Shown one piece after another: positions 1,005-63,930 of a stretch of 64,000 bases of DNA. The DNA is from Candidatus Sulfomarinibacteraceae bacterium (lineage in GTDB: Bacteria; Acidobacteriota; Thermoanaerobaculia; Thermoanaerobaculales; Sulfomarinibacteraceae). The notes below the pieces were generated by a model. It made no database searches, was not told the DNA's origin, and was given only the letters and a program-made list of their open reading frames with translations. The stretch spans positions 828,214 to 892,213 of the forward strand of contig CAVTEP010000001.1 of assembly GCA_963733915.1 (NCBI GenBank). Reading direction: 5' to 3'. Position 1 is the first letter of the stretch. Each line of letters starts with the position of its first letter. The translations under genes were made by a program, and so were the position numbers.

Positions 1005-1113
1005 TTTCGAATTTTGAATTCTGAATTCTGAATTTTCAATTCCCGCCCATCCCTCCCCGGTGTCATTGGGGTGGGTGGGGGCATTCCTAATTCCTAATTC
1101 CTAATTCCGAATT
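1005..1113. repeat. Composite intergenic repeat: (GAATTCT)n - CCCGCCCATCCC..GGGGTGGGTGGGG hairpin - (ATTCCTA)n
   Basis: Heptamer tandem repeats on both sides of a C-rich/G-rich inverted core, between convergent genes. Confidence 0.9.
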
Positions 1114-1126
1114 GGGTGGCCGGTGT

Positions 1127-2164
1127 TTACCTACAGAGCGGCTCTCCCGGCTCGCCCGCATTGCCCGTCGCGCGCAGAAAACGTCTCGTTACCTCGCGAA
1201 CCATCCTCCTGACGGGCCTGTCGTTACCGTTTCGGTTGACAAGCGGAATCTGCGCTGCCGCAAGCGCCTGGTGGCCGCCGCCGAAACCGCTGCGGCCTCC
1301 AAGGTTGCGGGCGACGCGGCCCGCGTGGCGCTCCCGGTCCATGGTGCGGAGACTGAGATGGAGCCAGCCGTCGATCTCACCCAGGCACATGGTCCAACGC
1401 ACCTCTTCGGCGCGCAGGAGCAGGTCGGCCGCCTCGGCAACCATCTCCGGCGACTCGAGTCGTCCGAGGAAGGAAACGATACGATCACCGTAGACGGTTG
1501 CCTGGTCGAGTGCGGTGCGGAGCTTCGAAAAATAGCTTCGGGGTAGCGGCGCCTGGACGATGCGCCCGAGCGCACGTGCGTTGGCGTTGGGGTAGAGATC
1601 GAGAAACGCCTCGAGGTCGGCCTTGGTGCTCTCGCGCCCGAGATCCTGAGTGTCGGATCGGATACCGTAGACCATCGCGGTGGCCACCGGGGTCGGGATG
1701 CTGATCTCTGCCGCCCGAAGGTACTCGTACAGGATTGTCGACGTGGCGCCGTATCGGCTGCGGATGTCTGTAAATCGCGCGGAACGGGTTTCACGCCGAA
1801 TCGGGTGGTGGTCGATGACCACATCAAGGCGAACCGCTGAGTCAAAGCTGACATTTCCGGCGCCCGGTTGGGCGTCGACCATGCTCAGGCGGTCGAATCG
1901 ACTGAGGTCGAGATCGGTGAGCGCGCGCGTGTGGAGACCGAGGTATTTCAGCAGGGCGAGATTCTCAGCCCTCCAGATACCTCCGGAATGGCCGATCGAG
2001 CAGGAGATATCATGACGTACGTTCGCCAGCTCGCGGAGCGCGGCGGCAGCAGCGATGGCATCGGGGTCGGGTGTGTTCTGGACAATGATGAGCATGCTGC
2101 GGGCGCCATCGAGCACCGCAGACAGCCTCTCGAGTCTCGTCTCAACGGTCAGGGTTCTACCCAC
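1127..2164 (-). CDS. DHH/DHHA1 family phosphoesterase (NrnA-like)
   Basis: Motifs PDPDA, VIDHH, GIRSDT and GGGH. Confidence 0.9.
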   Translation of the reverse strand: MGRTLTVETRLERLSAVLDGARSMLIIVQNTPDPDAIAAAAALRELANVRHDISCSIGHSGGIWRAENLALLKYLGLHTRALTDLDLSRFDRLSMVDAQPGAGNVSFDSAVRLDVVIDHHPIRRETRSARFTDIRSRYGATSTILYEYLRAAEISIPTPVATAMVYGIRSDTQDLGRESTKADLEAFLDLYPNANARALGRIVQAPLPRSYFSKLRTALDQATVYGDRIVSFLGRLESPEMVAEAADLLLRAEEVRWTMCLGEIDGWLHLSLRTMDRERHAGRVARNLGGRSGFGGGHQALAAAQIPLVNRNGNDRPVRRMVREVTRRFLRATGNAGEPGEPLCR

Positions 2165-2314
2165 CTGTCCCCCTTGTGTGGTTGCGGCGCGATCGAGTGC
2201 ATTTCAACTCCGGCGCGCAAGTATAGCGTTCCTGGCCGCGCTTCGCTCAATCCGACAATTTGTTTTGGATGATGCGTCGTCGAGCACGGGTAGAATGTCC
2301 GTCCGGAGGCGTGG

Positions 2315-5340: not shown

Positions 5341-5803
5341 GACGGGCGAGCGGTTGTCGGTGCGACCGCCCCAACTGGGCGACTCGCGGGCGCTGGCCGA
5401 GGCGGAGGTTGTCTGTTTTTCGGACCCGTGGCCGGCCCAATTCTTTGTCTCAGAGATCCTGGCGGACGGACGCTTCAACCGACTCCTTGTTGATCCTGCC
5501 GGACACATGGTGGCCTACCTCTTCTGCGCCTGGCAGTATCTGGATCTGCACGTGCTCAAGGTCGCCACCATGCCGTCGCACCGACGCAAAGGTCTCGCAC
5601 TGCGCCTGATGGCGATCGCCGAAGCCCACGCGGTCGAAGCCGGCGGCGAGTCTCTGACTCTCGAAGTGCGGGCGTCCAACGACGGCGCCATCGCCCTTTA
5701 TGAAACGCTCCGCTACTACCAGGCAGGCGTGCGCCGAGGCTACTACCAGGACGGCGAGGACGCGGTCGTCATGACAAAACGAATTCAGAATTCGGAATTC
5801 TGA
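5327..5803 (+). CDS. rimI: Ribosomal protein S18 alanine N-acetyltransferase
   Basis: Motifs FSDPW, RRKGLA, LEVRASN..AI.LY and GVRRGYY..GEDA. Probable TTG start at 5327. The C-terminal IQNSEF* is encoded by a heptamer repeat. Confidence 0.9.
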   Translation: MPSAETGERLSVRPPQLGDSRALAEAEVVCFSDPWPAQFFVSEILADGRFNRLLVDPAGHMVAYLFCAWQYLDLHVLKVATMPSHRRKGLALRLMAIAEAHAVEAGGESLTLEVRASNDGAIALYETLRYYQAGVRRGYYQDGEDAVVMTKRIQNSEF

Positions 5804-5997
5804 ATTCTGAAAAGGGGAAAAGGGGAAAAGGAGACCAACCGCCCTCCGACTGTGCCCCACCGCCAACGCTCTCCTGCTCCTCTGCCCCTCCGCTCCTTTT
5901 CTCCTTTTCACGGCAGGGTGGGCGGAAACTCGAAATTCGAAATCCGAAATCCGAAATGGAGGGGAGGGCGGGAATTCCTAATTCCTAATTCCTAATT
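5781..5997. repeat. Composite intergenic repeat: (GAATTCN)n, (AAAAGGGG)n...(CTCCTTTT)n, GGGTGGGCGG, (AAATCCG)n, (AATTCCT)n
   Basis: Several tandem-repeat blocks between convergent rimI and fumC, overlapping both stop codons. Confidence 0.9.
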
Positions 5998-9777: not shown

Positions 9778-9899
9778 TCCCTCCCGACCCACCCCTCCGT
9801 GAAAAGGAGAAAAGGCGCAGAGGAGCAGAGGGGTGGGCGCGGTCTCCTTTTCCCCTTTTCTCCTTTTCCCCTTTTCACACACTGCATCCTGCATCCTGG
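9778..9899. repeat. Composite intergenic repeat: CCCACCC, (AAAAGGAG)n, GGGTGGG, (CTCCTTTT/CCCCTTTT)n, (TGCATCC)2
   Basis: Inverted octamer arms, same family as 5810-5910 and 25220-25384. Confidence 0.85.
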
Positions 9900-12825: not shown

Positions 12826-12887
12826 CCCGCCCACCCACCCTCGGAAACCCGCGCACGATGTGCTGCGGCTTTCCGAGGGGAGGGGGG
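12826..12887. repeat. CCCACCCTCGGAAA...TTTCCGAGGGG hairpin element
   Basis: Inverted repeat; a second copy lies at 53278-53350. Confidence 0.75.
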
Positions 12888-13029
12888 AAAATCCACAAAT
12901 CCGAGTATCTTTCGAAACTCTCAGAGTTGGCTCGGGACGAGACGTTTCAGGTTTCCGTCTTCCGAAAACCGAACTTATCGGCTGTGGAAACAGAGCTGCG
13001 ATACCATGGGCGCGCCAGGAACCCGGACA

Positions 13030-16566: not shown

Positions 16567-16852
16567 CGGAAATGCGTGAGATCGAGGGTTGGAAGTTTCG
16601 GTCAGCAGCGACAGGGACAGAGACAGACGGCAGAGGCAGGGTCAGAGGGCAGCGGCCGGGGCAGCGCTCAAGGGTCGTGACGCGCTGGACCGTCCGGGCG
16701 CTGCCGCCGTCCCTGCCCGAAGTTGCAACGGATAGAACCAACGACTTCGTGGGGGGGGGCTCCCCTTTTCCCCTTTTCCCCTTTTCTCCTCTCCGTCCTC
16801 GGGACGGCCGGGCGGAACGTTCAAACGTTCTAACGTTCTAACGTTCTAACGT
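16567..16852 (+). mobile_element. Gene-less (MITE-like) internal-deletion derivative of the four-helix-bundle element
   Basis: 16567-16682 matches leader 39232-39358. 16700-16852 matches the trailer end plus the (CCCCTTTT)n-GGGCGG-(AACGTTCT)n tail at 40048-40125. Mobility is inferred. Confidence 0.7.
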
Positions 16853-18335
16853 TGGTGCGCTGCAGCATCCGATTCCTGGGATCGCGGCTCTCGCCGACCG
16901 CGGAAACGCGGATCGCGGCCTGCTCGCCGACCGGACAGCGGTTCTCGCACAGTCCGCAGCCGGTGCAGAGGTCGGGGGTGACGGAGGGGCGCTGCAGGAT
17001 GACGGCTTTGCCGTCGCGGCGGGTCACCTCGACGGTCTCGAGCCAGACCGCTTTGGGCGAGGTGGGGCACATCTCCTCGCAGACGATGCAGGGCGTTTCC
17101 ATGCCCCAGGGCAGGCAGCGGCCGCGGTCGACAAAGGCGGTGCCGATGGTGACCTCGGCCGGTCCGCCGATCGCCTGTTTGGCGTTGGGGTCGACGGTGG
17201 CGATGGCGGCGGTCGGGCAGACCTCGCCGCAGCGGATACACGACGGCTCGCACCAGCCGCGGCGCATGTCGAGGATCGGCGTGAACAGCCCCTCGACCCC
17301 GGTCTTGCCGAGGTCGGCGCGGATCACCCCGGTGGGACAGGAGGCCGAGCAGGCGCCACAGGTGATGCAGCGGGCGAGGAAGGCCTCCTCGTCGAGCGCG
17401 CCCGGCGGGCGGATTCCATCGTGGGCGCGGCCTTCGAGGCCGTTGCCGGCCGCGCGCAGCACCGGCGCAAAGGCGGCCGAACCGGCGACGGTGAGCAGGA
17501 AACGGCGGCGGCCGACATCGAGGGCCGGCACGGGCTGTGCGGTTTGGGCTGACGGCAGACCGTAGTGCAGGCTCTCCTCGGAGCAGGTGCCGAGACAGTT
17601 GAGGCAGACGTGGCACTCGCTGACGCGGTGCTTCTCGAGCGGCTCGTCGGCCCCCTGGCAGGCGAATACGCACAGCGTGCAGCCGGTGCAGGAACCCGAC
17701 TGGTCGCGACGGATGCGCAACGGGGCGAGACGGGCGACGACACCCATCAGGGCTCCCAGGGGACACACTGCGCGACAGAAGAAGCGGGGGATCATCGCCG
17801 ACAACAGGAGAATCGTGGCCAGCAGGCCAAAGCTGACCCAGCCGCCGGGGGAAAGGCCGCCGTGCCACAGTGGGCGGATGCCGCCGGCAAAGGCGCGGTG
17901 GAGCAGGGGGATGGGGTCGAGCCAGCCGATGTGGTTGGCGCCAAGCGCGGCCCACACCAGGAGCACCGTGAGCACGATGTACTTGATCGAGAACCAGCGG
18001 TGGTAGCGGTTGATCTTGGGCCGCTTGCGGCGCTCGGGGCCGGCGATCCAGGAGACGATTTGCTGGAGGGTGCCGAGCGGACACACCCAGCCGCAGAAGA
18101 TACGGCCGAGGACCGCGGTGAGGGCCAGGACCGCGAGGCCGATCCAGGTCCAGCGGGGAATGGTCCAGTCGGACAGCGCCGTGCCGATGGCGGTCAAGGG
18201 ATCGAGGGCGAGCAGGATTGAAGCCGCCGCCGCGGGCACCCGCGGCTCGGCAAGCCCCCAGAAAAGCGCCACGAACGCAAGCAGGAAGAGCGCCTGGGAG
18301 AGTATCCGATAGTGCCGCGCGCGAGGCAGCTTCAT
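16830..18335 (-). CDS. Membrane 4Fe-4S protein (NapH/MauN-like fused to MauM/NapG-like)
   Basis: Motifs GRIFCGWVCPLG, FFCRAVCPLG, IRPPGA and multiple CxxCxxCxxxCP. Start taken at ATG 18335 because the upstream part of the ORF is repeat-derived. Confidence 0.88.
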   Translation of the reverse strand: MKLPRARHYRILSQALFLLAFVALFWGLAEPRVPAAAASILLALDPLTAIGTALSDWTIPRWTWIGLAVLALTAVLGRIFCGWVCPLGTLQQIVSWIAGPERRKRPKINRYHRWFSIKYIVLTVLLVWAALGANHIGWLDPIPLLHRAFAGGIRPLWHGGLSPGGWVSFGLLATILLLSAMIPRFFCRAVCPLGALMGVVARLAPLRIRRDQSGSCTGCTLCVFACQGADEPLEKHRVSECHVCLNCLGTCSEESLHYGLPSAQTAQPVPALDVGRRRFLLTVAGSAAFAPVLRAAGNGLEGRAHDGIRPPGALDEEAFLARCITCGACSASCPTGVIRADLGKTGVEGLFTPILDMRRGWCEPSCIRCGEVCPTAAIATVDPNAKQAIGGPAEVTIGTAFVDRGRCLPWGMETPCIVCEEMCPTSPKAVWLETVEVTRRDGKAVILQRPSVTPDLCTGCGLCENRCPVGEQAAIRVSAVGESRDPRNRMLQRTNVRTLER

Positions 18336-18361
18336 CGACACGATCCCATGAAAAGACCAGT

Positions 18362-18465
18362 GTTGAGTTTTGAGTTTTGAGTTTTGAGTTTCCACCCAAC
18401 CAACCGTGGGTGCCGGTGGGTGGGTGGGGGCAACTCAAAACTCAAAACTGAAAACTCAAAACTCA
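18362..18465. repeat. Inverted composite repeat (TTTTGAG)n - CCACCC..GGGTGGGTGGGGG - (CTCAAAA)n
   Basis: The whole unit is an imperfect palindrome. Confidence 0.92.
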
Positions 18466-18475
18466 CGGTCTTGCC

Positions 18476-19471
18476 TCAAGTCCCGATCGAGATCGACTTC
18501 CAGTCGGTGGTGCCGAGTCCAAGACGCGCGGCGATGGCGATGTGCGGCAGGTCTTCCGGACCGAGGTCGAGGAGCGAGGCGCCCCAGGCGTCGGCTGCCA
18601 CCGGGTCGGTCGCGACCGCGATCGTGTCGTCGGGCCGCACCAGCGCCAACGAGCCGCCCGTCGGGCCGCCGCCGGTGAGGACCCTGGTGGCGTCGATCAC
18701 CGTCAGAGTCGGACGGAAGGCCGCGCCGAGCTCGGCGCAGACCTGGCCGATCCGCTGGTGGAGGTTGGAGCGGCGGCCGACCACGGCGCCAAACCAGTTC
18801 TTCATGCCCAGCGTCGCGCGTGACAGCGAGTGGTGCTTGACCACCGGCACGTTGATGACCCGGTCGGCGCGGACGATGGGCTCGAGCACCTCCCATGGGC
18901 CAAGCACCGTGCCGCCGAGGTCGAGACGCACGGTGCCGGCGCTGCGCTGATGGCTGATCGATCCGCCGGCGTCACGAGCGGCGACGGCGATGCCCGAGCG
19001 CTCGAAAGAGCGGCCGGGATCGTGGCACGAGTTGTCGACCACGATCACAGACACCGCGCCGGCCGCGAGACACTGGCGGGCGAGCTCGCCGATCAGCTCT
19101 GGATCGGTGTTGGCGGCCTGTTCGGGTGAGCGGTCCCAGGCGCAGTTGGGCTTGATGGCGACCCGTTCGCCCGGTTTGACAAAGCTCTCGATGCCGCCCA
19201 TCGCCGCCAGCGCGAGGCGCAGGTTGGCCACCGGGCCACCACCCGCGGCGATCGCCAGACGGCCCGCCGCCTCGGGGTCGAGGCGCCAATCTTTCGGTCG
19301 CGGGAGTGATTCCACCGATGCCGGCTGGTGGCGACCCGGCCGGCCGCTGAAGCCGAGACCGAGCCCGGCGAGGGCGACGCCGGCGATGGCGGGTGGTCCC
19401 CACTGCCGGAGCAGATCGCGCCGGCCGATGGCGTGGTAAGGGTCGACGACAGGGAGCTTGTTGTTATCCAT
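18476..19471 (-). CDS. DUF362 domain protein (Tat-like leader)
   Basis: Motifs VAIKPN, ANTDP, INVPVVKHH, MKNWFG and DPVAADA; GRRDLL leader. Confidence 0.85.
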   Translation of the reverse strand: MDNNKLPVVDPYHAIGRRDLLRQWGPPAIAGVALAGLGLGFSGRPGRHQPASVESLPRPKDWRLDPEAAGRLAIAAGGGPVANLRLALAAMGGIESFVKPGERVAIKPNCAWDRSPEQAANTDPELIGELARQCLAAGAVSVIVVDNSCHDPGRSFERSGIAVAARDAGGSISHQRSAGTVRLDLGGTVLGPWEVLEPIVRADRVINVPVVKHHSLSRATLGMKNWFGAVVGRRSNLHQRIGQVCAELGAAFRPTLTVIDATRVLTGGGPTGGSLALVRPDDTIAVATDPVAADAWGASLLDLGPEDLPHIAIAARLGLGTTDWKSISIGT

Positions 19472-19504: not shown

Positions 19505-19742
19505 TCCCCCCACCCGTCCGAGAAAAGGAGAAAAGGAGAAAAGGAGAAAAGGAGCAGAGGAGCAGGACGTTAGAACGTTAGAACGTTTAACGTTGAAACG
19601 TTTTCCGCCCGCCCAACCTGATGTACCGGTGACGGGGGAGGGTGGCAACGTTCTAACGTGCCAACGTTCTAACGTGCCAACGTTCTCCCCGTTTCACAAC
19701 GACGTCCACCCGTGCCAACGATAAGACGTGCCAAAGTTCGAA
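19505..19742. repeat. Composite repeat (AAAAGGAG)n, (AACGTTAG)n, CCGCCCGCCC..GGGGGAGGGTGG, (AACGTTCT/AACGTGCC)n
   Basis: Octamer tandem blocks in a divergent intergenic region. Confidence 0.9.
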
Positions 19743-21094: not shown

Positions 21095-21095
21095 A

Positions 21096-22304: not shown

Positions 22305-22918
22305 ATGCCATGACGGATTCATCCGATATTCTCGGTTCATTGATGCAACAGCTGGGTAGCGGCGGAGTCAGCGAGATCGCGCGCTCGGTCGGCCTCGACA
22401 GCTCGGACGTCACCAATGTGTTGGCCGGCGCGGTGCCCGCCATGCTGGCGGGCCTCACCCGCAACAGCTCGTCGAGTGCAGGAGCCGCCGGCCTTCTCGG
22501 CGCTCTCGACCGCGATCACGACGGGAGCGTCCTCGACGACGTCATGGGCTACCTCGGCGGTGGTGGAAACCTGGCGGACGGGGCGGGGATACTCGCACAC
22601 GTGCTCGGTGGTCGTCAGACAAACGTCGAGTCGGCGATCAGCCGATCGAGCGGGGTCGATCTCGCTTCGGTCGGGAAGATCCTCGCCATGGTTGCGCCAC
22701 TGCTCATGGGTGCGCTCGGGAAGGCCAAGCGACAGCATGGATTCGACGCTTCCGGTCTGGCGGCTGCACTTGGTCAGCAGGAGAAGGCCGCGCGACAGGT
22801 CTCGCCCTCGGCGGTCGATCTATTCTCGAAAATGCTCGACAGCGACGGCGATGGCGATCCCATGGACGACATCGTCAAGATGGGTTCGGGTCTGCTCGGC
22901 GGACTGTTCGGAAAGTAG
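22301..22918 (+). CDS. DUF937 family protein
   Basis: Motifs ALDRDHDGSVLDD, GILAHVLG and LDSDGDG. Confidence 0.8.
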   Translation: MNAMTDSSDILGSLMQQLGSGGVSEIARSVGLDSSDVTNVLAGAVPAMLAGLTRNSSSSAGAAGLLGALDRDHDGSVLDDVMGYLGGGGNLADGAGILAHVLGGRQTNVESAISRSSGVDLASVGKILAMVAPLLMGALGKAKRQHGFDASGLAAALGQQEKAARQVSPSAVDLFSKMLDSDGDGDPMDDIVKMGSGLLGGLFGK

Positions 22919-22932
22919 GAATTAGGAATACG

Positions 22933-22960
22933 GACTCACCCCGACGGGGGTGAGTTCAAA
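22933..22960. terminator. GC stem-loop after the DUF937 gene (possible terminator)
   Basis: GACTCACCCC-GACG-GGGGTGAGTT, preceded by (TAGGAAT)2. No U-tract on the + strand. Confidence 0.45.
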
Positions 22961-23136
22961 AGATCGGGTCCATTGGCTTCTGAGGCTTTGTCCCTTTGAG
23001 ATCAATGTGGCCCGTTTTTTCGACTTTTAGTTTCTTGGTGCCGAAGGCCCCCTGGGTAAACAGCGAGCCGCGAACACCGTAACTGACATCGTCTTTGATA
23101 GGATGGTGATCTTGATTTCGGACGGAGGAGGACTGG

Positions 23137-24702: not shown

Positions 24703-25221
24703 GTGCCGTGGTGATCGGGCCCGAGACCAAGGTCGGTGATCTGCTCGATGCCTACCCCGAGGCGGAGGAAGTCCTGATCGGGATCGCACCCCAGTTCAAG
24801 GCCCTCAAGAACCCGGTCCTGCGGCGTACGGTCGCCAGGGTGGCTACCCTGGAGCAGGCGGCGCGGGTGGCGGGGATGAGCGCCAGGGAGCTCGTGAGGG
24901 CGCTGCGGAGCGCGCTCGGAGCCGATTGCGGCGTGCTGGAGGACGGTCCCGACTCGGGCGGTGGGAAACGACGACGCTCCGGTCTGGGTGCGCGTGGATC
25001 AAGAGGCGACGATCGACGCCGGCGCGTTGCTCGACGCCGGCCAGACGCCGATCGCGATCGCGTCGAAGGCCATTTCCGAGATGGAGACCGGGGAGGTGCT
25101 GGTGGTTGCCGCGCCCTTCCAACCGGCGCCGCTCATCGACTCGCTCAGGGGCAAGGGGCACGAGGTGTATATCCGAGCCGACGATGATGGTGCGTGGAAG
25201 GTGTGGGTGAGGAAAGGCTGA
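24699..25221 (+). CDS. DUF1858 domain protein, apparent frameshift near 24960
   Basis: TKVGDLLDAYP and FKALKNP.LR. The C-terminus (PFQPAPLID) is in ORF 24961..25221. Confidence 0.75.
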
Positions 25222-25456
25222 AAAGGGGAAAAGGGGAAAAGGAGAAAAGGAGAAAAGGAGAAAAGGAGAGTGGGTGCCTTGAGCCGTTGAAACGTTAATA
25301 CGTTAGAACGTTAGAACGTTCAAACGTTTCAACGGTTTGCGGCAGACACCCGCCTCTGCGCCTTTTCTCCTTTTCCCCTTTTCAAAATGCGGTGGATCTC
25401 CTCGGGCAGGTGGGGGAATTCCTGATTCCCAATTCCTAATTCCTAATTCCTAATTC
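25220..25456. repeat. Nested composite repeat (AAAAGGRG)6 .. (AACGTTAG)n .. (CCTTTTCT)n, GGTGGGG, (AATTCCT)n
   Basis: Begins at the TGA of the upstream gene; nested inverted arms. Confidence 0.9.
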
Positions 25457-30424: not shown

Positions 30425-31051
30425 ATGAGCGACCGAGCTGCAGGGGATACGTACCGCACTGAGCGGATTCCAACGCGGTCGGCTGATTCGGTCGGCGGCG
30501 GCCGGCCGGGATCGTCCGTCGGCCGTATGGGGATGTGGCTGCTGCTTGCCTCCCTCGGCGTGCTCTTTACCGCCTGCCTGGTCGGCTTCCTGGTGGTTCG
30601 GATGCGCGCACCCGTGTGGCCGCCACCGGGCTCGCCCTCTTTGCCGGGCGGGCTGTGGGTCAGCACCATGCTCCTGGTGGTGCTCAGCCTCTCGCTGGTA
30701 CTCGCCGAACGCGCGGTCCGCGCCGGTCGCGAAGCGTCTCTCGTTCGCTGGCTCTCGGTCTCGGTACTGCTGTCGCTCGCCTTTCTCGGCGCCCAGGTCT
30801 CGAACTGGATGAGGATGGCGGCGGGCGAAACGCTGCCGGCGCAGAGCCTCTTCGTGTGGGGTTTCTACGTCCTGACCTTTCTCCACGCGGCGCACGTGAT
30901 CTTCGGCCTCGTGCCCCTGGTCCTGGTCACCCTCCGCGCCCGCCGCGGCGCTTACACCGCCGACAGTAGCGAGGGCATCCACCTCGTCGCCCTGTACTGG
31001 CACTTCCTGCTCGTAACCTGGATCGCGGTTTTCGCAGTTATGAGTTTTTAG
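30425..31051 (+). CDS. Second heme-copper oxidase subunit III-like protein
   Basis: Motifs GMWLLLAS, LHAAHV and LYWHF. Start uncertain (30404 or 30425). Confidence 0.85.
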   Translation: MSDRAAGDTYRTERIPTRSADSVGGGRPGSSVGRMGMWLLLASLGVLFTACLVGFLVVRMRAPVWPPPGSPSLPGGLWVSTMLLVVLSLSLVLAERAVRAGREASLVRWLSVSVLLSLAFLGAQVSNWMRMAAGETLPAQSLFVWGFYVLTFLHAAHVIFGLVPLVLVTLRARRGAYTADSSEGIHLVALYWHFLLVTWIAVFAVMSF

Positions 31052-31155
31052 TTTTGAGTTGGCCCCCGCCCACCCTGGAAATCCCATGGGAGGGTGGATG
31101 GGAACTCAAAACTCAAAACTCAAAACTCAAAACTCAAAACTCAAAACTCAAAACT
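31041..31155. repeat. Inverted composite repeat (TTTTGAG)n - CCCGCCCACCC..GGGAGGGTGG - (AACTCAA)7
   Basis: Same heptamer as 18362-18465; supplies the stop codon of the upstream gene. Confidence 0.92.
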
Positions 31156-34506: not shown

Positions 34507-34620
34507 GAATTCTCAATTCTCAATTCTCAATTTTGAATTCCCTCTCGTTTCCCAATGCTTGGTGGGGGCGGGTGGGAATTGAGAATTGAGAACTGAGAAT
34601 TGAAAACTGAGAATTCCCTA
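34507..34620. repeat. Inverted composite repeat (AATTCTC)n - CCC..GGGGGCGGGTGGG - (AATTGAG)n
   Basis: Palindromic heptamer arms abutting the pepD stop codon. Confidence 0.92.
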
Positions 34621-38767: not shown

Positions 38768-38852
38768 GCCGATCCTCCTCTTTGGATGGCCTACACGGTC
38801 CATCGTATCACTCTGGGTACCGCGCCACAAATGGGAAAAATTCCTCCATTTT

Positions 38853-39225
38853 CCGTGCCCATACCCGTCTCCGTATCCGTGCCCGAACGTGGTCTTGGGC
38901 CCTCAAAGACCAGGGAAATCCCAGAGTCGGCAGCGTAACTCCCGCCCCTTCAATTTTTACTTCTCGTGCTTCCGAGCACGGAGACAGAGACGGGCGCAGC
39001 GGCTTCGCAGCGAAAACGGATCGTTACGACGACGTGGGCACCTTCGGGCATTGTGGCTGTGGACTGCCCCTGGCGCGGTCTCCGGCCGCTGCCGCCGCAC
39101 CTGCCGCCGTTCGATTGAAGGGAACCACAGGCCGGAGGAGGGGGCGGGGAAAAATTCCGAATTCTGAGGTGCTTCCTTTTCCCTTTTTCCCCCGCCTTTT
39201 CAGGGAAGGTGAGCGGAACGTTCGG
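38853..39225. repeat. 6-nt-period repeat block plus an extra copy of the element trailer module
   Basis: CCGTGC-period repeats at 38853-38888 with a complementary arm near 38974-38997. 39056-39190 is a diverged direct repeat of ~39902-40066. Confidence 0.8.
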
Positions 39226-39363
39226 TTCACCCGGAATTGCGTGAGATCGAGGTTTGGAAGTTCCGATTGGCATTTGCAGCGACAGGAACAGCGACCGACC
39301 GCAGGGGCAGCGAACAGCGTCCGCGGCAGCGGCCGGGGCAGCGAGCAGGGGTCGTGACGACGG

Positions 39364-39515
39364 CATGGCCACCTCCGGGTCGTTCAGTGCGAGAAGTAGC
39401 CGGTGGCCGGCCGATGTCAAGGGCAAGCCGGGCCGGGGGCCCGGTGCGATGCACCCTTGACATCGGCCGCCTCACCGGCTCGAGGAAGGGCATGAACGAC
39501 CCGGAGGTGAACATG
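39364..39515 (+). promoter_or_regulatory. Long 5'-leader hairpin sequestering the SD and AUG of the four-helix gene
   Basis: Stems 39364-39386/39493-39515 (21 of 23 bp), 39398-39405/39473-39480 (8 bp) and 39408-39423/39454-39469 (16 bp). Confidence 0.8.
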
Positions 39516-39866
39516 TCCGACGCGCTCACGAAACCCAACCTCGTTGCCCACTCGAAAGCCCTTGACGCGGCTGGCATCGCCATCAGGCTTGTGATGAGGG
39601 TGCCAGCCCCTTTGAAATCGATCGCCGATCAGGTGATCCGGTCGGCAAGCTCGGTCCCCGCCAACCTGGCGGAAGGGCACGGCCGGGCCGGAAGAGACCG
39701 GCATCACTTCTGGAGGATCGCCTACGGCTCAGCCAAGGAGGTCGACAGCCACCTTCGCCTCCTGGTTCAGGCGGGTGCCATTGATGGACGAAGCGCCACG
39801 ACAGCGCTCAATACCTTCGATGAAGTTCGCGCCATGACCTGGCGCTTGCTCAACCCACAAACCTGA
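39513..39866 (+). CDS. Four-helix-bundle protein (23S rRNA IVP / TIGR02436 family), 117 aa
   Basis: DQVIRSASSVPANLAEGHGR..F.RIAYGSAKE motif; SD GGAGG 5 nt before ATG 39513. Confidence 0.92.
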   Translation: MSDALTKPNLVAHSKALDAAGIAIRLVMRVPAPLKSIADQVIRSASSVPANLAEGHGRAGRDRHHFWRIAYGSAKEVDSHLRLLVQAGAIDGRSATTALNTFDEVRAMTWRLLNPQT

Positions 39867-40006
39867 TCGACCTTCTCCGCGCCGGTGCGTCGGGGCGCTG
39901 TCGCTGTGGACTGCCCCTGACGCGGATTCCTGCCCCTGCCGCAGTCCCTGCCGCCTGCCGCCCATAGATCGGGCAGAACCACAGGCCCGAGAGGGGGTAG
40001 GGGGAA

Positions 40007-40039
<33 letters not shown>

Positions 40040-40130
40040 TGAGGTGCCTCCTTTTCCCCTTTTCTCCTCTGCCAAACCGGGACGGCTGGGCGGAACGTTC
40101 TAACGTTCTAACGTTCCAACGTGCCAACGC

Positions 40131-44286: not shown

Positions 44287-44553
44287 CGTTAGAACGTTCA
44301 ACGTTCGAACGTTAGAACGTTCCACCCACCCACCCCGAAGCCGTTGGTCGCATTCGTTGAATCGGCAGTCAGGGACAGCGGCGGGAACAGCGTCGGCGGC
44401 CGGAGACCGCGTCAGGGGCGGCCCACAGCGACGGCACCCGGAGGACCGGCACTGAAATCGTCGATCGACAGTCACGCGGCTTCTCACAGACGGGGGAGGG
44501 TGTGATGGGAACGTTTAACGTTCTAACGTTCTAACGTTCTAACGATCCAACGG
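44287..44553 (-). repeat. Trailer-module unit flanked by inverted (AACGTT..) octamer arms and CCCACCC/GGGAGGG brackets
   Basis: Core CGGAGACCGCGTCAGGGGCGGCCCACAGC is the reverse complement of the trailer at 39056 and 39902; closely similar to 45410-45585. Confidence 0.85.
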
Positions 44554-44610: not shown

Positions 44611-45372
44611 ATGATCAACCGGCTCATCCACGGAGACGTGCACGTGTTGCGGCTGAACCGGCCACCGGTGAACGCACTGTCGCCCGAACTCCTGCGGCTG
44701 CTGGCGGAGGAGGTCCGCTGTGCTCCGGAACGCGGCGCCAGGGCCCTGATCCTCACGGGAGGCGAGGGAATGTTCTCGGCGGGTCTCGACGTGCCGCTCC
44801 TGATGACGCTCGATCGGAAGTCTCTGGCTGAGGCGTTGGTCACCTTCTTCGACGCCATCGAATCACTGGCAGCATCGACGGTGCCGTTGGCGGCCGCCAT
44901 CACCGGTCACAGCCCGGCCGGCGGAGCAGTCCTCGCGTTGTGTTGCGATTGGCGGGTGATGGCCGCCGGCGAGTACACGATCGGCCTCAACGAGGTGCGG
45001 ATCGGCATCCCGGTCCCCGACATCTTGGCGGTGCTGGCGACGCGCGCCGTCGGTCCGCGAGTCGCCGAGTCGCTGTGCGTGTCGGGTCGTCTCGTGGCGG
45101 CTGAGGAGGCGCTGAGGATCGGGTTGATCGACGAGGTCGCGCCGATGAAGCACGTGGTCGATACGGCCCTTGCGTGGTGCGAGCGAATCATCGAGGCCCC
45201 GGTGAAGGCTCTATCCGACACCAGGTTGGTCATGCGCCGCGACCTCGTCGAGGCGATTCGATCGTGCCGCGAGGAGGACACCCGGCGCCTCGCAGATCTC
45301 TGGTTCCAGCCCGAACTCCAGGCCGCGATGCGAGCCCTGGTCGAGCGCCTCAAAGGCGAGCTGAATTCTTAA
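44611..45372 (+). CDS. Enoyl-CoA hydratase/isomerase family (delta3,delta2-isomerase-like)
   Basis: Motifs NRPPVNAL, FSAGLD, GHSPAGG and IGLNE. Confidence 0.9.
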   Translation: MINRLIHGDVHVLRLNRPPVNALSPELLRLLAEEVRCAPERGARALILTGGEGMFSAGLDVPLLMTLDRKSLAEALVTFFDAIESLAASTVPLAAAITGHSPAGGAVLALCCDWRVMAAGEYTIGLNEVRIGIPVPDILAVLATRAVGPRVAESLCVSGRLVAAEEALRIGLIDEVAPMKHVVDTALAWCERIIEAPVKALSDTRLVMRRDLVEAIRSCREEDTRRLADLWFQPELQAAMRALVERLKGELNS

Positions 45373-45858
45373 TTCTCAATTCTCGAATTCTCAATTTTGA
45401 ATTCCCACCCGCCCCTCCACGAAGCTGTGGATCCCATCAGTTGCAACGGCGTACAGGGACAGCGGCAGGAACAGCGCCAGCGGCCGGAGATCGCGTTAAG
45501 GGCAGTCCACAGCGACGGCACCAGGACGGACCGGTACTGAAACTGTCGACAGCCACGCAGCCTCTGAAAAACCGGGGAGGGTGGGAACGTTGAACGTTCT
45601 AACGTTTGAACGCTGCACCCACCCCCCACGAAGCCGTCGTCACGATTCCTGTTCGCTGCCCCGGTCGCTGCTCTCTGATTCTGACCCTGCCTCTGCGGAC
45701 TGTCGCTGCCGCTGCTGACCAAAAGTCGCGATCTTGAATCTCTCCCAATTTCGGGTGAGCCCCATTCGTACTTCCAATCTTCTTTGCCTGCCCGGTTATC
45801 TGCGGGAGGGGAGGGTGGAATTCAAAATTGAGAATTGAGAATTCAGAATTGGGAATTC
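45364..45858 (-). mobile_element. Gene-less derivative of the four-helix element: trailer and leader modules inside (AATTCTC)n/(GAGAATT)n arms
   Basis: 45410-45585 is the trailer (reverse complement). 45620-45760 is the leader (reverse complement of ...GGGGCAGCGA..TCGTGACGACGG). Same order as copy 2 but without hairpin or gene. Confidence 0.7.
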
Positions 45859-53175: not shown

Positions 53176-53277
53176 CCAAGTGCAGTATAGCCACACAGTG
53201 ATAGTAAATTTTAAAATTATATGAATTATTATATATATTTAATTAATATAATATACGCCCGCCCAATGCGTCTCCGC

Positions 53278-53534
53278 GCCCGCCCACCCTCGGAAATCCA
53301 TGACAACCGGCGCCGGGCGCCGGCTGACGCGAATTTCCGAGGAGAGGGGGTGTTTTTGAACCGGCGCCGGACTCATCTCCGAGTTTCCACGACTCATGTC
53401 TCAAAAGACCTTCGTGATTCCTTTGTGACCTTTGAGTCTTTGTGGTTAGGGGTGGGTGGGTGGCCCCATAGCCCATAGCCCCATAGCCCGGGCGGGTGGC
53501 CGGAATTCCTAATTCCTACTCGAATTCCGAATTC
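53278..53534. repeat. Composite repeat: CCCACCCTCGGAAA hairpin, ~9-nt CTTTGTG repeats, GGGTGGGTGGG, (CCCATAG)3, (AATTCCN)n
   Basis: Seen directly; ends at the stop codon of the gene at 53533. Confidence 0.85.
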
Positions 53535-57667: not shown

Positions 57668-57838
57668 TCCCACCCACCTCGGCCAGTAGAATTTCGGATT
57701 TCGAATTTCGGATTTCGGATCCCACCAGCATCCCCTGACATTACAGACTGACAAAAGCAAGCATTCCGCAACATCCGCATCCAGCATCCAGCATCTGGGG
57801 CGGGTGGACGGCAAATCCGAAATCCGAAATCCAAATTA
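57668..57838. repeat. Composite repeat CCCACCC, (ATTTCGG)n .. (CATCCAG)n, GGGCGGGTGG, (AAATCCG)n
   Basis: Inverted heptamer arms between convergent genes. Confidence 0.9.
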
Positions 57839-58545: not shown

Positions 58546-58585
58546 ATCGTTCAAACGTTATAACGTTCAAACGTTAAAACGTTCG
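58546..58585. repeat. (AACGTTNN)n octamer block
   Basis: About five degenerate units in a divergent promoter region. Confidence 0.75.
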
Positions 58586-59174: not shown

Positions 59175-59205
59175 CATGACGCGGCTCGTGACAGGCCACC
59201 GGGCG

Positions 59206-59531
59206 TCATGTCATCCCGAACGAACGGCGCAAAGCGGCGTGAGGAGGGATCTGCATCGGTAGTCGCTGCCGGTTCGTTCGAACCCGCCCACCCAGACCCT
59301 TCGGTCGGCTGCGCCTTCCTCAGGGTGACATTCAGACTCGGCTGCCAAGGCCAGCCGGTCTTCATGTCATCCCGAACGAACGGCGCAAAGCGGCGTGAGG
59401 AGGGATCTGCATCGGTAGTCGCTGCCGGTTTGTTGGAACCCGCCCACCCAGACCCTTCGGTCGGCTGCGCCTTCCTCAGGGTGACATGTCGACTCGGCTG
59501 CCAAGGTCAGCCGGTCTTCATGTCATCCCGA
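59206..59531. repeat. 156-bp tandem repeat of a REP-like palindrome (TGTCATCC...GGGTGACA), two full units plus the start of a third
   Basis: TGTCATCCCGA begins at 59209, 59365 and 59521. Confidence 0.92.
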
Positions 59532-62125: not shown

Positions 62126-62171
62126 CTAGGTGGTGAGTGGGGCCCCGCGGTGGGGACGGAGCTTTGTGACG

Positions 62172-62912: not shown

Positions 62913-63175
62913 GCGAACGCTCCCACCGTTGAAACGTTTGAACGTTAGAACGTTCCGCCCGCCCTCCCTGAAAAGGCAGTGGGGAAAAGGTGAAAAGGGG
63001 AAAAGGAGCCATCGCAGATTTCGGATTTCGGATTTTCCACCCACCCGTCCCCGACGAGTTTGGTCGCATCCGTTGGACGGGCGGTCAGGGGCGGCGGCAG
63101 GGACAGCGGCCGGGGACCGCGTCAGGGACAGTTGACAGCGGCAGCACCCGGCCGGACCGGCGCGGAGAACGCCGA

Positions 63176-63529
63176 TCAGGTGTTTGGGTTGAGCAAACGC
63201 CAGGTCATGGCGCGGACTTGATCGAAGGTATCGAGCACGATCATGGCGCTTCGTCCATCAACGGCACCAGCCTGAACCAGGAGGCGAAGGTGGCTGTCGA
63301 CCTCCTTGGCTGAGCCGTAGGCGATCCTCCAGAAGTGCTGCCGGTCTCGTCCGGACCGGCCGTGGCCTTCCGCCAGGTTGGCCGGGACCGAGCTAGCCGA
63401 CCGGATCACCTGATCGGCGATCGACTTCAAAGGGGCTGGAACCCTCATCACGAGCTTGATGGCGATGCCAGCCGCGTCAAGGGCTTTCGAGTGGGCAACG
63501 AGGTTGGGGTTCGTGAGCGCGTCGGACAT
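63176..63529 (-). CDS. Four-helix-bundle protein (23S rRNA IVP / TIGR02436 family), 117 aa
   Basis: 11 of 117 residues differ from copy 1 (manual count); same SD and start. Confidence 0.92.
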   Translation of the reverse strand: MSDALTNPNLVAHSKALDAAGIAIKLVMRVPAPLKSIADQVIRSASSVPANLAEGHGRSGRDRQHFWRIAYGSAKEVDSHLRLLVQAGAVDGRSAMIVLDTFDQVRAMTWRLLNPNT

Positions 63530-63678
63530 GTTCACCTCCGGGTCGTTCATGCCCTTCCTCGAGCCGGTGAGGCGGCCGATGTCAAGGGTGCATCGCACCG
63601 GGCCCCTGGCCCGGCTTGCCCTTGACATCGGGTGCCCACCGGCTACCTCTCGCACTGAACGACCCGGAGGTGAACATG
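63527..63678 (-). promoter_or_regulatory. Leader hairpin occluding SD and AUG (copy 2)
   Basis: Perfect 23-bp inverted repeat 63527-63549/63656-63678 (TGAACGACCCGGAGGTGAACATG). Confidence 0.82.
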
Positions 63679-63930
63679 CCCTCGTCACGACCCCTGCTCA
63701 CTGCCCCGGTCGCTGCCGCGGTCGCTGCCGCGGACGCTGTTCACTGCCCCTGCGGTGTGTCGCTGTTCCTGTCGCTGGATTAGCTGATCGGAACTTCCAA
63801 AACTCGATCCCATCAAATTCCGGATGAGCCGAACGTTTCACTCATCCCTTCCAGGGACCTCGGACGGTCACTCCACCCAGGTGGGCGGTTGGTAACGTTC
63901 TAACGTTCCAACGTTTTAACGTTTGTGCCC

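What the first reader, a model, noticed from the sequence alone, without database searches (positions are those of the whole stretch)
1005..63924. Window-wide intergenic grammar: interchangeable 7-8-nt tandem repeats as inverted arms around CCCACCC/GGGTGGG brackets
Seen at about 19 loci (1005, 5781, 9778, 12826, 16760, 18362, 19505, 22916, 25220, 31041, 34507, 39150, 40005, 44287, 45364, 53278, 57668, 58546, 62926/63893). Units are AATTCCT, GAATTCT, AATTCTC, AAATCCG, TTTTGAG, CATCCAG, CCCATAG, AAAAGGAG and AACGTTCT. Arms are often reverse complements (18362, 31041, 34507, 45364, 57690), giving long slip-register hairpins, and different units substitute for one another and nest. They are absent inside tight operons (cox, nuo, lemA). 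Known: reminiscent of cyanobacterial STRR heptamers and REP/BIME mosaics, but with different motifs. Inference: one mechanism, possibly template-directed repeat addition, generates these, and the four-helix cassette is the largest cargo.
Basis: partly seen in the sequence, partly recalled or inferred. Interest (0 to 1): 0.8.

Follow-up and report, generated by a model that had tools for sequence, protein, structure and literature searches.

The report
Tandem-repeat-armed hairpins at gene ends
The gaps after genes in this sediment acidobacterium are filled with stereotyped hairpins whose two arms are runs of 7-8-base repeats, and the same design wraps a small four-helix-bundle gene across the phylum, so this is a real, poorly understood class of bacterial non-coding DNA.

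Summary
TRF finds arrays at 16 of the 19 listed loci. The 4.65-Mb genome holds 1,186 AT-rich period-7/8 arrays, against 2-8 per period in shuffled intergenic DNA. The arms are stereotyped: about 33 nt whatever the period, fixed phase at the clamp, and fixed polarity (C-rich clamp 5', G-rich clamp 3'). They sit next to stop codons.

Sites are conserved between species of the genus, but the unit usually is not (4 of 25 shared), and 12 units cover 80% of arrays.

The four-helix (PF05635/TIGR02436) gene is a true cargo. One 825-bp cassette with about 22-bp terminal inverted repeats occurs 12 times. In 23 of 28 loci across Acidobacteriota this gene lies between inverted tandem arrays.

Best reading: insertion elements like rRNA intervening sequences (IVS) and REP repeats, mostly without an ORF, tolerated because a roughly 45-bp stem loops them out of the mRNA. 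The arms change by unit slippage and by module swapping.

Template-directed addition has no support: the only reverse transcriptases found are group II intron type, and the Y1 transposases are not flanked by arrays. No RNA or read data could be obtained.

This scan has already reported the same element class on other windows of this genome and in another acidobacterium.

The parts
1004..1113 (.). Hairpin island between converging genes: left arm of GAATTYT units, C-rich/G-rich clamp, right arm of ATTCCTA units
5781..5997 (.). Composite nested island: GAATTCT, GAAAAGGG ... CTCCTTTT, CGAAATC and AATTCCT arrays with clamps
9805..9898 (.). Island with AGGAGCAG, CCTTTTCC and CTGCATC arrays
12826..12905 (.). 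Clamp-only hairpin (conserved core 'module B', 16 copies in the genome) with a degenerate right arm; TRF finds no array
16761..16853 (.). TCCCCTTT and AACGTTCT arrays
18359..18465 (.). Near-perfect hairpin: (GAGTTTT)n, C clamp, loop, G clamp, (AAAACTC)n. It lies between the DUF362 stop and the Fer4 gene start. The orthologous site is occupied in 10 of 10 genus genomes, with different units
19520..19686 (.). GAGAAAAG array followed by an AACGTT-type hairpin in a divergent spacer
22916..22965 (.). Weak instance: two AGGAATT units and a short GC hairpin
25211..25456 (.). Composite island upstream of the cox operon: GAAAAGGA, CGTTAAAA, CCTTTTCC and AATTCCT arrays
31036..31155 (.). (AGTTTTG)n / (AACTCAA)n hairpin after the cox operon, between converging genes
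34508..34615 (.). (AATTCTC)n / (GAATTGA)n hairpin
38830..39214 (+). ORF-less remnant of a four-helix cassette. Its right-end modules are repeated at 39980-40130
39215..40039 (+). 825-bp four-helix cassette, one of 12 copies. From left to right: left terminal inverted repeat, GC-rich (CAGCGR)n arm, structured leader (39366-39520), PF05635/TIGR02436 ORF (39513-39866), inverted GC-rich arm, G clamp, (AATTCCG)n
40040..40129 (.). CCTTTTCC array, G clamp and outer (AACGTTCT)n arm closing the cassette
44287..44552 (.). AACGTT-type arrays flanking the end of the nuo operon
45364..45857 (.). ORF-less cassette-like cargo inside (AATTCTC)n / (GAATTGA)n arms, with an inner AACGTT array. The orthologous spacers in two relatives are 95-101 nt and have no array
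53262..53518 (.). Module-B clamp hairpin, then G clamp with CCCATAG and AATTCCT arrays
57691..57836 (.). Nested hairpin: (ATTTCGG)n ... (CATCCAG)n ... (AAATCCG)n
58548..58584 (.). CGTTAAAA / 16-mer array
62933..63923 (-). Second copy of the four-helix cassette, with ORF 63176-63529 on the minus strand. It lies inside outer AACGTT arms, with inner GGGGAAAA and GATTTCG arrays

Best explanation
These are palindromic insertion elements of the kind seen in rRNA intervening sequences (IVS) and REP repeats.

Each element has two arms of about 33 nt, built from four to five copies of a 7-8-nt AT-rich unit. The arms enclose one of two things. One is a short apical stem (C-rich 5' half, G-rich 3' half, about 42 nt). 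The other is a cargo: the PF05635/TIGR02436 four-helix gene cassette, or another conserved module.

The ORF-bearing form occurs across Acidobacteriota. In this genus, ORF-less forms have multiplied to about 760 islands.

The elements sit directly after stop codons or between cistrons. I infer that they are transcribed with their neighbours. I infer that the arms then pair into a stem of roughly 45 bp that loops the insert out of the mRNA. That stem is a likely substrate for double-strand-specific processing, as RNase III cuts the stem of S23p-bearing rRNA IVSs. This would explain why they are tolerated only at gene ends.

Shown here: the anatomy, polarity, length rule and gene-end position; conservation of site with change of unit; whole-unit copy-number change between identical strains; module replacement; and the link to PF05635.

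Inferred, not shown: RNA folding in vivo, cleavage, selfish origin and the way the elements spread.
For: Abundance and non-coding location.

Stereotypy:
- Arm length has a median of 33 nt for both period 7 (IQR 30-34) and period 8. It is 28-33 nt in five relatives and 33 nt around PF05635 genes across the phylum.
- The phase at the clamp is fixed, for example 67 of 106 AAAACTC arrays and 37 of 54 AACGTTCT arrays.
- Unit orientation is fixed in 110 of 110 same-unit inverted pairs, against only 6 direct pairs.
- The clamp is C-rich first and G-rich second in 87 of those pairs, against 3 the other way. Across all arrays, 723 are clamp-adjacent in that polarity (697 with one clamp, 26 with both), against 63 and 78 in the opposite one.

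Hairpin potential: 106 same-unit pairs have a median MFE of -52 against -24 kcal/mol when shuffled (z -9.1). Of the 269 mixed-unit pairs, 51% still pair arm to arm.

Gene-end position:
- Islands occupy 190 of 399 convergent, 337 of 1259 tandem and 94 of 439 divergent spacers of at least 50 bp.
- The median distance to a stop codon is 10 nt, with a mode at -2. The median distance to a start codon is 57 nt.

Insertion:
- The DUF362-Fer4 junction carries arrays in 41 of 68 loci. The other 27, mostly the more distant homologues, have none, and there the next gene mostly abuts the stop.
- Spacers of 465 and 149 nt in this genome correspond to spacers of 6 and 10 nt in two relatives.

Turnover:
- Sites are conserved: tandem spacers 13 of 22 against 4 of 59, divergent spacers 5 of 11 against 0 of 34.
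- Units are shared in only 4 of 25 sites occupied in both species.
- The same left arm occurs with different right parts.
- Arrays of 3 and 4 units lie beside a gene that is 100% identical over 993 nt.

Cargo link.

The family expands in a lineage-specific way. The (GAATTNN)4 pattern is found in 24 of 24 genomes of the genus, 4 of 8 of genus g20 and 0 of 42 of the sister family. Other genomes use other units.

IVS precedent: an S23p ORF lies in the loop of a 28-bp terminal-repeat stem cut by RNase III (PMC4990558, passages read).
Against: No RNA or read data could be obtained, so transcription, folding and cleavage are untested.

No mobility enzyme is linked to the elements. None of the 9 Y1-transposase-like genes is flanked by matching arrays, and the RTs typed are group II intron type.

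The short cores are not copies of a master element. Only 59 of 381 resemble another core, and then mainly in the clamp. This argues against MITE-like copy-and-paste of whole short elements.

Some arms are more conserved than the adjacent coding sequence. An identical left arm is kept at 75-89% gene identity. At one site, relatives carry an ordinary perfect palindrome instead. Both observations suggest a function selected by the host rather than a merely tolerated parasite.

The link to PF05635 is imperfect.
- One 95%-complete genome has 102 pattern matches and no PF05635 hit.
- 0 of 80 (GGGAATC)4 loci from other phyla have a PF05635-like ORF within 1 kb. This test has low power, because only about 2% of islands here carry the gene.

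About half of the mixed-unit pairs do not pair arm to arm.
Confidence: 0.55

Rival explanations
1. Host-selected gene-end hairpins. On this view they are non-canonical transcription terminators, 3'-end protectors or insulators between converging transcripts. They arise in place and are kept perfect by slippage and selection. The four-helix cassettes merely insert into them.
For: Occupancy is strongly conserved at orthologous sites. An identical arm is kept at 75-89% gene identity. At the site orthologous to C3:24506, two relatives carry perfect non-repeat palindromes instead. Islands are enriched in convergent spacers and hug stop codons. Because the hairpins are palindromic, both strands give the same RNA.
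Against: Canonical terminator-like sites are not enriched in 20 kb of the window (15 against 13.6 +/- 4.0 expected), and only one overlaps an island. The most frequent unit puts the U-rich arm before the stem and the A-rich arm after it. Hairpins also sit between genes of one operon-like pair and in 94 divergent spacers. The restricted, species-specific set of units and the patchy spread within a genus are not expected of a purely structural host signal. The four-helix cassettes across the phylum carry their own arms where no ORF-less hairpins abound.
Confidence: 0.25
2. Template-directed repeat addition. A dedicated enzyme would synthesise the arms from a small set of templates. Candidates are a reverse transcriptase working with the Avd-like four-helix protein, or a telomerase-like activity.
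For: The unit set is restricted: 75 units in all, and the top 12 cover 80% of 1,186 arrays. Arm length is fixed at about 33 nt whatever the period, and the phase at both ends is fixed. Orientation is fixed per unit. The unit changes at conserved sites. The elements are associated with an Avd-family protein (PF05635-Avd homology from PMC10053308, passages read).
Against: PF00078 gives only 3 matches in the genome. The two typed are group II intron RT/maturases (375 and 340 bits against a cut-off of 300), and none is near a PF05635 gene. No template RNA was found, and Rfam gives nothing. The one strain-level change seen is a single-unit gain or loss. The arms carry independent variants and their lengths are uncorrelated (r = 0.03). 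Arrays persist in a genome with no PF05635 hit.
Confidence: 0.1
3. DNA-level structural sites: cruciforms, G-quadruplex/i-motif pairs, or BIME-like binding sites for nucleoid proteins or gyrase. These would act on chromosome topology rather than on RNA.
For: The tracts are AT-rich in a 64% GC genome. The clamps are G-run and C-run motifs. Rehm et al. 2015 showed G4 formation by related G-rich heptamer arrays in vitro (PMC4692102, abstract and passages read).
Against: Only 29 of 381 cores hold a canonical four-run G4 motif. The units are AT-rich, not G-rich. Placement flush with stop codons, and the arrangement around an expressed-looking ORF with its own Shine-Dalgarno leader, point to the RNA level.
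Confidence: 0.07
4. Assembly artefact of low-complexity sequence.
Against: The same architecture and units occur in 24 of 24 other assemblies of the genus. They also occur at the orthologous junction in metagenome contigs. The arrays have precise, gene-respecting boundaries.
Confidence: 0.01

Closest known systems
23S rRNA intervening sequences carrying an S23p (PF05635) ORF, as in Coxiella burnetii and Leptospira (PMC4990558, passages read)
   Same: A PF05635-family ORF sits in the loop of a long stem formed by terminal inverted repeats. The element is an insertion that is excised or looped out at the RNA level. Its origin and mobility are unknown.
   Different: Here the elements lie between protein-coding genes, not in rRNA helices. 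Their stems are tandem 7-8-nt repeats. ORF-less versions number in the hundreds. Cleavage by RNase III is untested.
GGGAATC heptamer repeats of Xanthomonas and GGGGAYT repeats of Nostoc (Rehm et al. 2015, PMC4692102, abstract and passages read)
   Same: These are intergenic heptamer arrays with a preference for about four units. They sit close to or overlap stop codons and are under-represented in divergent spacers. There are 70-75 convergent inverted pairs per Xanthomonas genome. Repeats are not kept at the same genes between species. The nearest solved structure to the window's four-helix protein is a Xanthomonas campestris protein (2GSC).
   Different: Those units are G-rich and were interpreted as G-quadruplex formers. 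There is a single unit family per genome. No clamp, cargo or PF05635 link is reported: the words S23, intervening and xcc0516 do not occur in the text. Here there are about a dozen AT-rich units and a polar C/G clamp.
REP/BIME mosaics of enterobacteria and REPINs of pseudomonads (from my own knowledge)
   Same: They are abundant imperfect palindromes at gene ends, combined into mosaics, and enriched between converging genes.
   Different: REPs have a conserved family sequence and a cognate RAYT transposase. Here only the clamp motif and the unit set are shared, the cores differ, and the Y1-transposase-like genes are not flanked by arrays.
Cyanobacterial STRR heptamers and TAACTGA repeats of Beggiatoaceae, cyanobacteria and Bacteroidetes (MacGregor 2015, PMC4679880, abstract read; STRR from my own knowledge)
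   Same: They are intergenic tandem heptamers of unknown origin. The same heptamer is found in distant phyla.
   Different: Those are mostly direct repeats: 169 direct sets and one indirect set in the Maribeggiatoa genome. They lie upstream of start codons, not as inverted arms after stop codons.
Avd, the accessory variability determinant of diversity-generating retroelements (PMC10053308, passages read)
   Same: It belongs to the same protein superfamily as the cargo, according to that paper's comparison of PDB 4DWL and 2GSC.
   Different: No DGR reverse transcriptase or template/variable repeat pair lies next to the cassettes here.

Membership tests
S23p-bearing IVS-type element | A PF05635-family ORF enclosed by terminal inverted repeats that can form a stem | tested here: met
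   TIGR02436 scores 64 and 60 bits against a cut-off of 24. PF05635 matches. The cassette has about 22-bp terminal inverted repeats plus outer AACGTT arms. Three ORFs lie inside inverted arms. 23 of 28 phylum loci have inverted flanks.
S23p-bearing IVS-type element | Located in helix 25 or 45 of the 23S rRNA gene | tested here: not met
   Rfam finds no rRNA in the window or at the two best PF05635 loci. The flanks are protein-coding genes.
S23p-bearing IVS-type element | The stem is cleaved by RNase III | not testable with these tools
REP/BIME (REPIN) | Abundant imperfect palindromes at gene ends, combined into mosaics | tested here: met
REP/BIME (REPIN) | A conserved family consensus sequence across copies | tested here: not met
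   Only 59 of 381 cores resemble another core, and mainly in the clamp. The arms use 75 different units.
REP/BIME (REPIN) | A cognate RAYT (Y1 transposase) gene flanked by the repeats | tested here: not met
   There are 9 PF01797 matches, and none has matching arrays on both sides.
Xanthomonas/Nostoc quadruplex-forming heptamer repeats | Intergenic heptamer arrays of about four units near stop codons, with inverted pairs | tested here: met
   The median is 4.7 copies, and 386 of 681 period-7 arrays have 4.x copies. For position and pairing.
Xanthomonas/Nostoc quadruplex-forming heptamer repeats | A G-rich unit giving four G-tracts (G4 potential) | tested here: not met
   The period-7 arrays have a mean GC of 0.38. 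A canonical G4 motif is found in only 29 of 381 cores.
MITE / small transposon | Terminal inverted repeats and many near-identical copies | tested here: inconclusive
   Met for the 825-bp cassette, which has 12 copies at 85.5-91% identity and terminal inverted repeats. Not met for the short hairpins. No target-site duplication could be defined, because the flanks are themselves arrays.
Intrinsic (Rho-independent) terminator | A GC-rich stem-loop followed directly by a U-tract | tested here: not met
   15 sites found against 13.6 +/- 4.0 expected in 20 kb, with one overlapping an island. The arm polarity differs by unit, and for the commonest unit the A-rich arm follows the stem.
Diversity-generating retroelement | An Avd-like gene next to a DGR-type reverse transcriptase and a template/variable repeat pair | tested here: not met
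   There are 3 RT matches. The two typed are group II intron RT/maturases, and none is near a PF05635 gene.
Cyanobacterial STRR | Tandem heptamers in non-coding DNA | tested here: met
Cyanobacterial STRR | The specific STRR units, in heterocystous cyanobacteria | not tested
   The STRR units are recalled only and were not compared. Earlier scan notes and the search at phylum level place the host in Acidobacteriota.

The most novel reading that the evidence does not exclude
The four-helix (Avd-family) cassette and its ORF-less derivatives form a widespread, undescribed class of mobile element. In this reading the tandem-repeat arms are not a by-product of slippage. They are made or measured by the element itself. 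For example, the oligomeric four-helix protein might bind one roughly 33-nt arm as a ruler, or a templated process might draw on a small set of units. This would explain the period-independent arm length, the fixed phase and polarity, the restricted unit set and the replacement of units at conserved sites.
Probability: 0.15. Interest if true: 0.85.

Novelty: new variant of a known kind. Interest (0 to 1): 0.6.

Why it matters
Over-represented heptamer repeats in bacterial intergenic DNA have been noted but not explained (Rehm et al. 2015, introduction passages read). The role and origin of the S23p/four-helix proteins of rRNA intervening sequences are also unclear (PMC4990558, discussion passages read).

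This genome ties the two together and gives rules that can be tested:
- a 33-nt arm whatever the unit length;
- a fixed polarity, pyrimidine-rich 5' and purine-rich 3';
- a small set of units;
- conserved sites with changing units.

If the stems are processed, these elements shape mRNA ends and operon expression at hundreds of genes in a common sediment lineage. If the arms are made by the element, that would be a new mechanism for generating repeats.

In my five literature searches I found no paper that links PF05635 genes to tandem-repeat arms. Subscription journals, and supplements I did not open, may hold such a report.

Tried and rejected
- RAYT/REPtron link: 9 Y1_Tnp matches, none flanked by matching arrays.
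- Dedicated reverse transcriptase: only group II intron RT/maturases were found.
- Canonical terminators: not enriched.
- G-quadruplex as a general feature: 29 of 381 cores.
- Master-copy MITE model for the short hairpins: the cores are not homologous.
- Palindrome formation by copying one arm onto the other. Mirrored variant words occur in 26 of 87 pairs, against 36-44 of about 87 when arms are taken from other loci. Arm lengths are uncorrelated.
- Rfam: no match in the window or at two PF05635 loci.
- Covariation in the cassette leader: 59 of 62 pairs are invariant and none is compensatory, so there is no evidence either way.
- Read-level variation and RNA ends.
- The search for related loci with a five-protein alignment was rejected as too divergent. 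I used a Pfam search across the phylum instead.
- Cross-phylum test from the array side: 0 of 80 (GGGAATC)4 loci hold a PF05635-like ORF within 1 kb. Power is low.
- A clean split into repeat-positive and repeat-negative genomes within genus g20 does not hold. A pattern-negative genome still has 13 period-7 arrays per 100 kb, built from other units.
- No near-identical strains were found in metagenome contigs: the best has 82% protein identity.
Full report
**What is there**

The window is part of contig C1 of a 4.65-Mb, 64% GC genome in 14 contigs. Earlier notes of this scan call it an uncultured sediment acidobacterium.

- 12826 and 22916 are clamp hairpins with at most two units.
- 39150 is a degenerate copy.
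- 53278 is only approximate.

By my island definition the window holds 19 islands, 1,704 nt in all. They lie in 13 of its 38 spacers of at least 50 bp.

Pfam annotation places the islands at the ends of the cox and nuo operons and between other transcription units. All gene-context figures rest on a crude gene caller of my own: 3,539 genes, 83% coding.

**More than chance, and genome-wide**

The genome holds 1,186 non-redundant AT-rich period-7/8 arrays in 761 islands.

Intergenic DNA has 608 period-7 and 485 period-8 arrays. Three dinucleotide shuffles give 2-8 per period. Periods 5, 9, 10 and 11 have 1-18 arrays.

Period-7/8 arrays are about 0.2 coding. Periods 3, 6 and 9 are 0.73-0.79 coding.

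**Grammar**

Of 409 adjacent array pairs:
- 110 use the same unit in inverted orientation;
- 6 use the same unit in direct orientation;
- 293 use different units.

Every unit has one fixed orientation relative to the centre. This holds for all 110 inverted pairs, for example 40 of 40 for GAGTTTT...AAAACTC.

The core between inverted arms has a median of 42 nt. It is C-rich in its first half and G-rich in its second in 87 cases, against 3 the other way.

Across all arrays, 358 have a G clamp just 5', 339 have a C clamp just 3', and 26 have both. The opposite polarity occurs in 63 and 78 arrays.

CCCACCC and GGGTGGG are about 35-40 times enriched in the cores.

Because the element is palindromic, either strand reads pyrimidine-rich arm, C clamp, loop, G clamp, purine-rich arm.

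**A length rule**

Arm length has a median of 33 nt for period 7 (IQR 30-34; 386 of 681 arrays have 4.x copies). It is also 33 nt for period 8.

The phase is fixed at the clamp side and non-random at the distal side. A typical arm is four units plus the A/T block of a fifth.

The same length holds elsewhere: 33 nt in G005 and G001, 28-31 nt in three other genomes, and 33 nt around PF05635 genes across the phylum.

The distribution is peaked, not geometric. Slippage alone does not explain it.

**Folding**

All 106 same-unit pairs that were folded give long hairpins. The median MFE is -52 kcal/mol, against -24 when shuffled (z -9.1).

Of the 269 mixed-unit pairs, 51% still pair at least half of the shorter arm with the other arm.

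The two arms are not detailed copies of each other.
- Their lengths are uncorrelated (r = 0.03).
- Mirrored variants are no commoner than with arms taken from other loci: 26 of 87, against 36-44 of about 87.

**Position**

Islands occupy 190 of 399 convergent, 337 of 1259 tandem and 94 of 439 divergent spacers of at least 50 bp.

They start a median of 10 nt from the neighbouring stop codon, with a mode at -2, where the stop codon is part of the array. They lie a median of 57 nt from a start codon.

Canonical terminator-like sites are not enriched in 20 kb of the window: 15 found, against 13.6 +/- 4.0 expected.

**Evolution**

Eighteen genomes of the genus, at about 75-81% nucleotide identity in genes, were first examined.

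At the DUF362-Fer4 junction (window 18395-18476), all 10 genus genomes fetched carry a tandem-armed hairpin. The units differ: GAGTTTT, CGGATTT, CGGAATT, GAATTCT and GAATTTT, sometimes different on the two sides.

I compared 203 orthologous neighbour-gene pairs against two relatives.
- The relative is occupied in 25 of 52 cases where this genome is occupied.
- It is occupied in 7 of 151 cases where this genome is not.
- Only 4 of the 25 doubly occupied sites share a unit.

Split by spacer type, the figures are 13 of 22 against 4 of 59 for tandem, 5 of 11 against 0 of 34 for divergent, and 7 of 19 against 3 of 16 for convergent spacers. The two relatives are not independent of each other.

The unit set is small: 75 units, with the top 12 covering 80% of arrays. 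It is partly shared within the genus.

Eighty metagenome loci with the same gene give a natural history of one junction.
- Of the 68 loci with enough flank, 41 have arrays after the stop.
- The other 27, mostly the more distant homologues, have none. In most of these the next gene starts within a few bases of the stop.
- Two contigs whose gene is 100% identical over 993 nt differ by exactly one unit (3 against 4).
- Four lineages at 75-89% gene identity keep an identical, internally heterogeneous left arm. Their right parts differ.
- Two lineages at 84% gene identity keep both arms but have unrelated cores.

Empty-site comparisons show whole elements of 149 and 465 nt where two relatives have spacers of 10 and 6 nt. 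At another site, the relatives carry an ordinary perfect palindrome instead.

**The four-helix cargo**

The genome has 17 PF05635 matches. Ten have arrays within 600 bp on both sides, against 39 of 946 control small genes.

Outside the window, three consecutive spacers of one gene string each hold a PF05635 gene inside inverted arms of a different unit.

Twelve of the 17 matches belong to one cassette of about 825 bp, at 85.5-91% identity to the window copy. It has terminal inverted repeats of about 22 bp set within AACGTT-type arrays. Inside these lie, in order:
- a GC-rich inverted hexamer arm;
- a strongly structured leader that pairs the Shine-Dalgarno sequence;
- the 117-aa ORF;
- an inner G clamp with an AATTCCG or AAATCCG array.

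The window holds two intact copies (39215-40039 on the plus strand, 62933-63923 on the minus strand). It also holds two ORF-less remnants (38830-39214 and 45364-45857).

The protein meets TIGR02436 at 64 bits against a cut-off of 24. Its nearest solved relative is 2GSC from Xanthomonas campestris. One paper compares that structure with the DGR protein Avd (PMC10053308, passages read).

**Beyond the genus**

The (GAATTNN)4 pattern is present in:
- 24 of 24 other genomes of the genus;
- 4 of 8 of genus g20, 11 of 12 of g24 and 3 of 7 of g19;
- 0 of 42 genomes of the sister family.

The reversed-pattern control stays near zero.

Pattern-negative genomes can still hold heptamer arrays built from other units.

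In g20 the four pattern-positive genomes have 15 to at least 53 PF05635 matches, and the four negative ones have 1-4. There are exceptions elsewhere in the family, in both directions. Related genomes are not independent samples.

Across the phylum, 79 of 151 genomes have PF05635. This tally includes two genomes flagged as unpublished, G142 and G167. No other claim in this report rests on them.

In 30 loci from 30 genomes, with GC from 29 to 70%:
- 23 of 28 evaluable loci have tandem arrays on both sides within 400 nt;
- 23 of 28 have a flank-to-flank inverted repeat at z >= 5;
- array density is 2.4 per kb near the gene, against 0.27 per kb further out;
- the units differ in nearly every genome.

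In the eight loci whose flanks I printed, the arms lie close to the upstream stop and the downstream start, and no C/G clamp is seen.

Random 60-kb samples hold 1-2 period-7/8 arrays in three PF05635-negative genomes. They hold 1-7 in three low-copy positive genomes. The mass of ORF-less hairpins is therefore lineage-specific, while the armed cassette is phylum-wide.

The heptamer array of Xanthomonas occurs in many phyla. None of 80 such loci holds a PF05635-like ORF within 1 kb. The test has low power, and the HMM does detect the window's two genes.

**Mechanism**

I rank an IVS/REP-like insertion element first, at about 0.55.
- The armed cassette is the full form.
- ORF-less hairpins and other cargo modules are derivatives. 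One such module has 34 copies and another has 16.
- The elements persist at gene ends because the stem loops them out of the transcript.
- The arms change by slippage and by module exchange, under a length constraint.

The host-selected gene-end hairpin is a serious rival, at 0.25. It is supported by arms that are better conserved than the coding sequence and by the replacement palindromes.

Template-directed addition gets 0.1. It would explain the ruler, the phase and the small unit set, but it has no enzyme.
- The RTs typed are group II intron type.
- The Y1 transposase-like genes are not flanked by arrays.

DNA-level roles (0.07) and assembly artefact (0.01) are unlikely.

**What stays open**

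Transcription, cleavage, read-level variation and the mode of spread were not tested.

**Relation to earlier work**

Rehm et al. 2015 described heptamer arrays in Xanthomonas with a four-unit preference, proximity to stop codons and 70-75 inverted pairs. They made no link to S23p genes.

MacGregor 2015 described mainly direct TAACTGA repeats (abstract read).

The Coxiella IVS paper describes the S23p ORF in a stem cut by RNase III, and says its origin is unclear.

Earlier agents of this scan reported the same element class on other windows of this genome and in a Pyrinomonadaceae genome. The present work agrees with them. It adds the length and phase rule, the polarity counts, the contrast between unit set and site, the cassette termini and the phylum-wide flank test.

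Noticed in passing
window 39366-39520 (and 63510-63680 on the minus strand): A leader of about 150 nt lies upstream of the four-helix ORF. Its outer stem pairs CCUCC... with the Shine-Dalgarno GGAGG, and there is an inner hairpin. It is nearly invariant among 8 paralogous copies (alifold -102 kcal/mol; 59 of 62 pairs invariant; no compensatory changes). It has no Rfam match.
   Followed up: partly
window 53190-53255: A stretch of about 65 nt made almost entirely of A and T, in a 64% GC genome. It lies directly before a module-B clamp hairpin. The 52-54 kb bin has the lowest GC of the window (0.585).
   Followed up: no
window 59193-59531: A 156-nt tandem repeat of 2.2 copies with 95% matches. 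It overlaps open reading frames on both strands and is unrelated to the heptamer arrays.
   Followed up: no
genome-wide, e.g. G000:C1:803344 and C1:911164; also in loci of G001 and G005: A conserved GC-rich core module: a hairpin followed by CCCCACAA and a downstream complementary TTGTGGGG segment. It has 34 copies at up to 3 mismatches. Some copies lie inside tandem-repeat arms, and it is shared by three species. It could be a small RNA or a MITE-like cargo.
   Followed up: partly
window 12826-12900 and 53262-53345; 16 copies genome-wide: A second conserved core (module B): a long C-run clamp followed by a CUCGGAAA...UUUCCGAG stem. It occurs without tandem arms.
   Followed up: partly
window 16606-16664, 39911-39962, 63081-63131 and 63701-63739: GC-rich arrays of period 6/12/19 (CAGCGG/CAGGGA type). 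They form the inner inverted arms of the four-helix cassette. One such array stands alone next to a PIN-domain gene.
   Followed up: no
G000:C6:657600-663100: Three weakly matching Y1-transposase-like genes lie within 6 kb, and five more are scattered elsewhere. None is flanked by heptamer arrays. Their role is unknown.
   Followed up: partly
L184-L263 (genome-contig scan): The exact (GGGAATC)4 array occurs in Xanthomonadales, Gemmatimonadaceae, several filamentous cyanobacteria, Thermoanaerobaculia, Elusimicrobia, Pirellulales, a Vibrio and a Thermoplasmata MAG.
   Followed up: partly
G005 and G001 loci orthologous to G000:C3:24506-24615: Where this genome has a GAGCTATG array after a stop codon, two relatives have perfect non-repeat palindromes. 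Their stems are about 20 bp, AT-rich on the outside and GC-rich on the inside.
   Followed up: no
L056 compared with L052, L066 and L085: One lineage has no hairpin at the DUF362-Fer4 junction. Its stop/start overlap reads like one copy of the heptamer unit that forms the arms in sister lineages. This could be an excision footprint, or the unit could have been seeded from local sequence.
   Followed up: no
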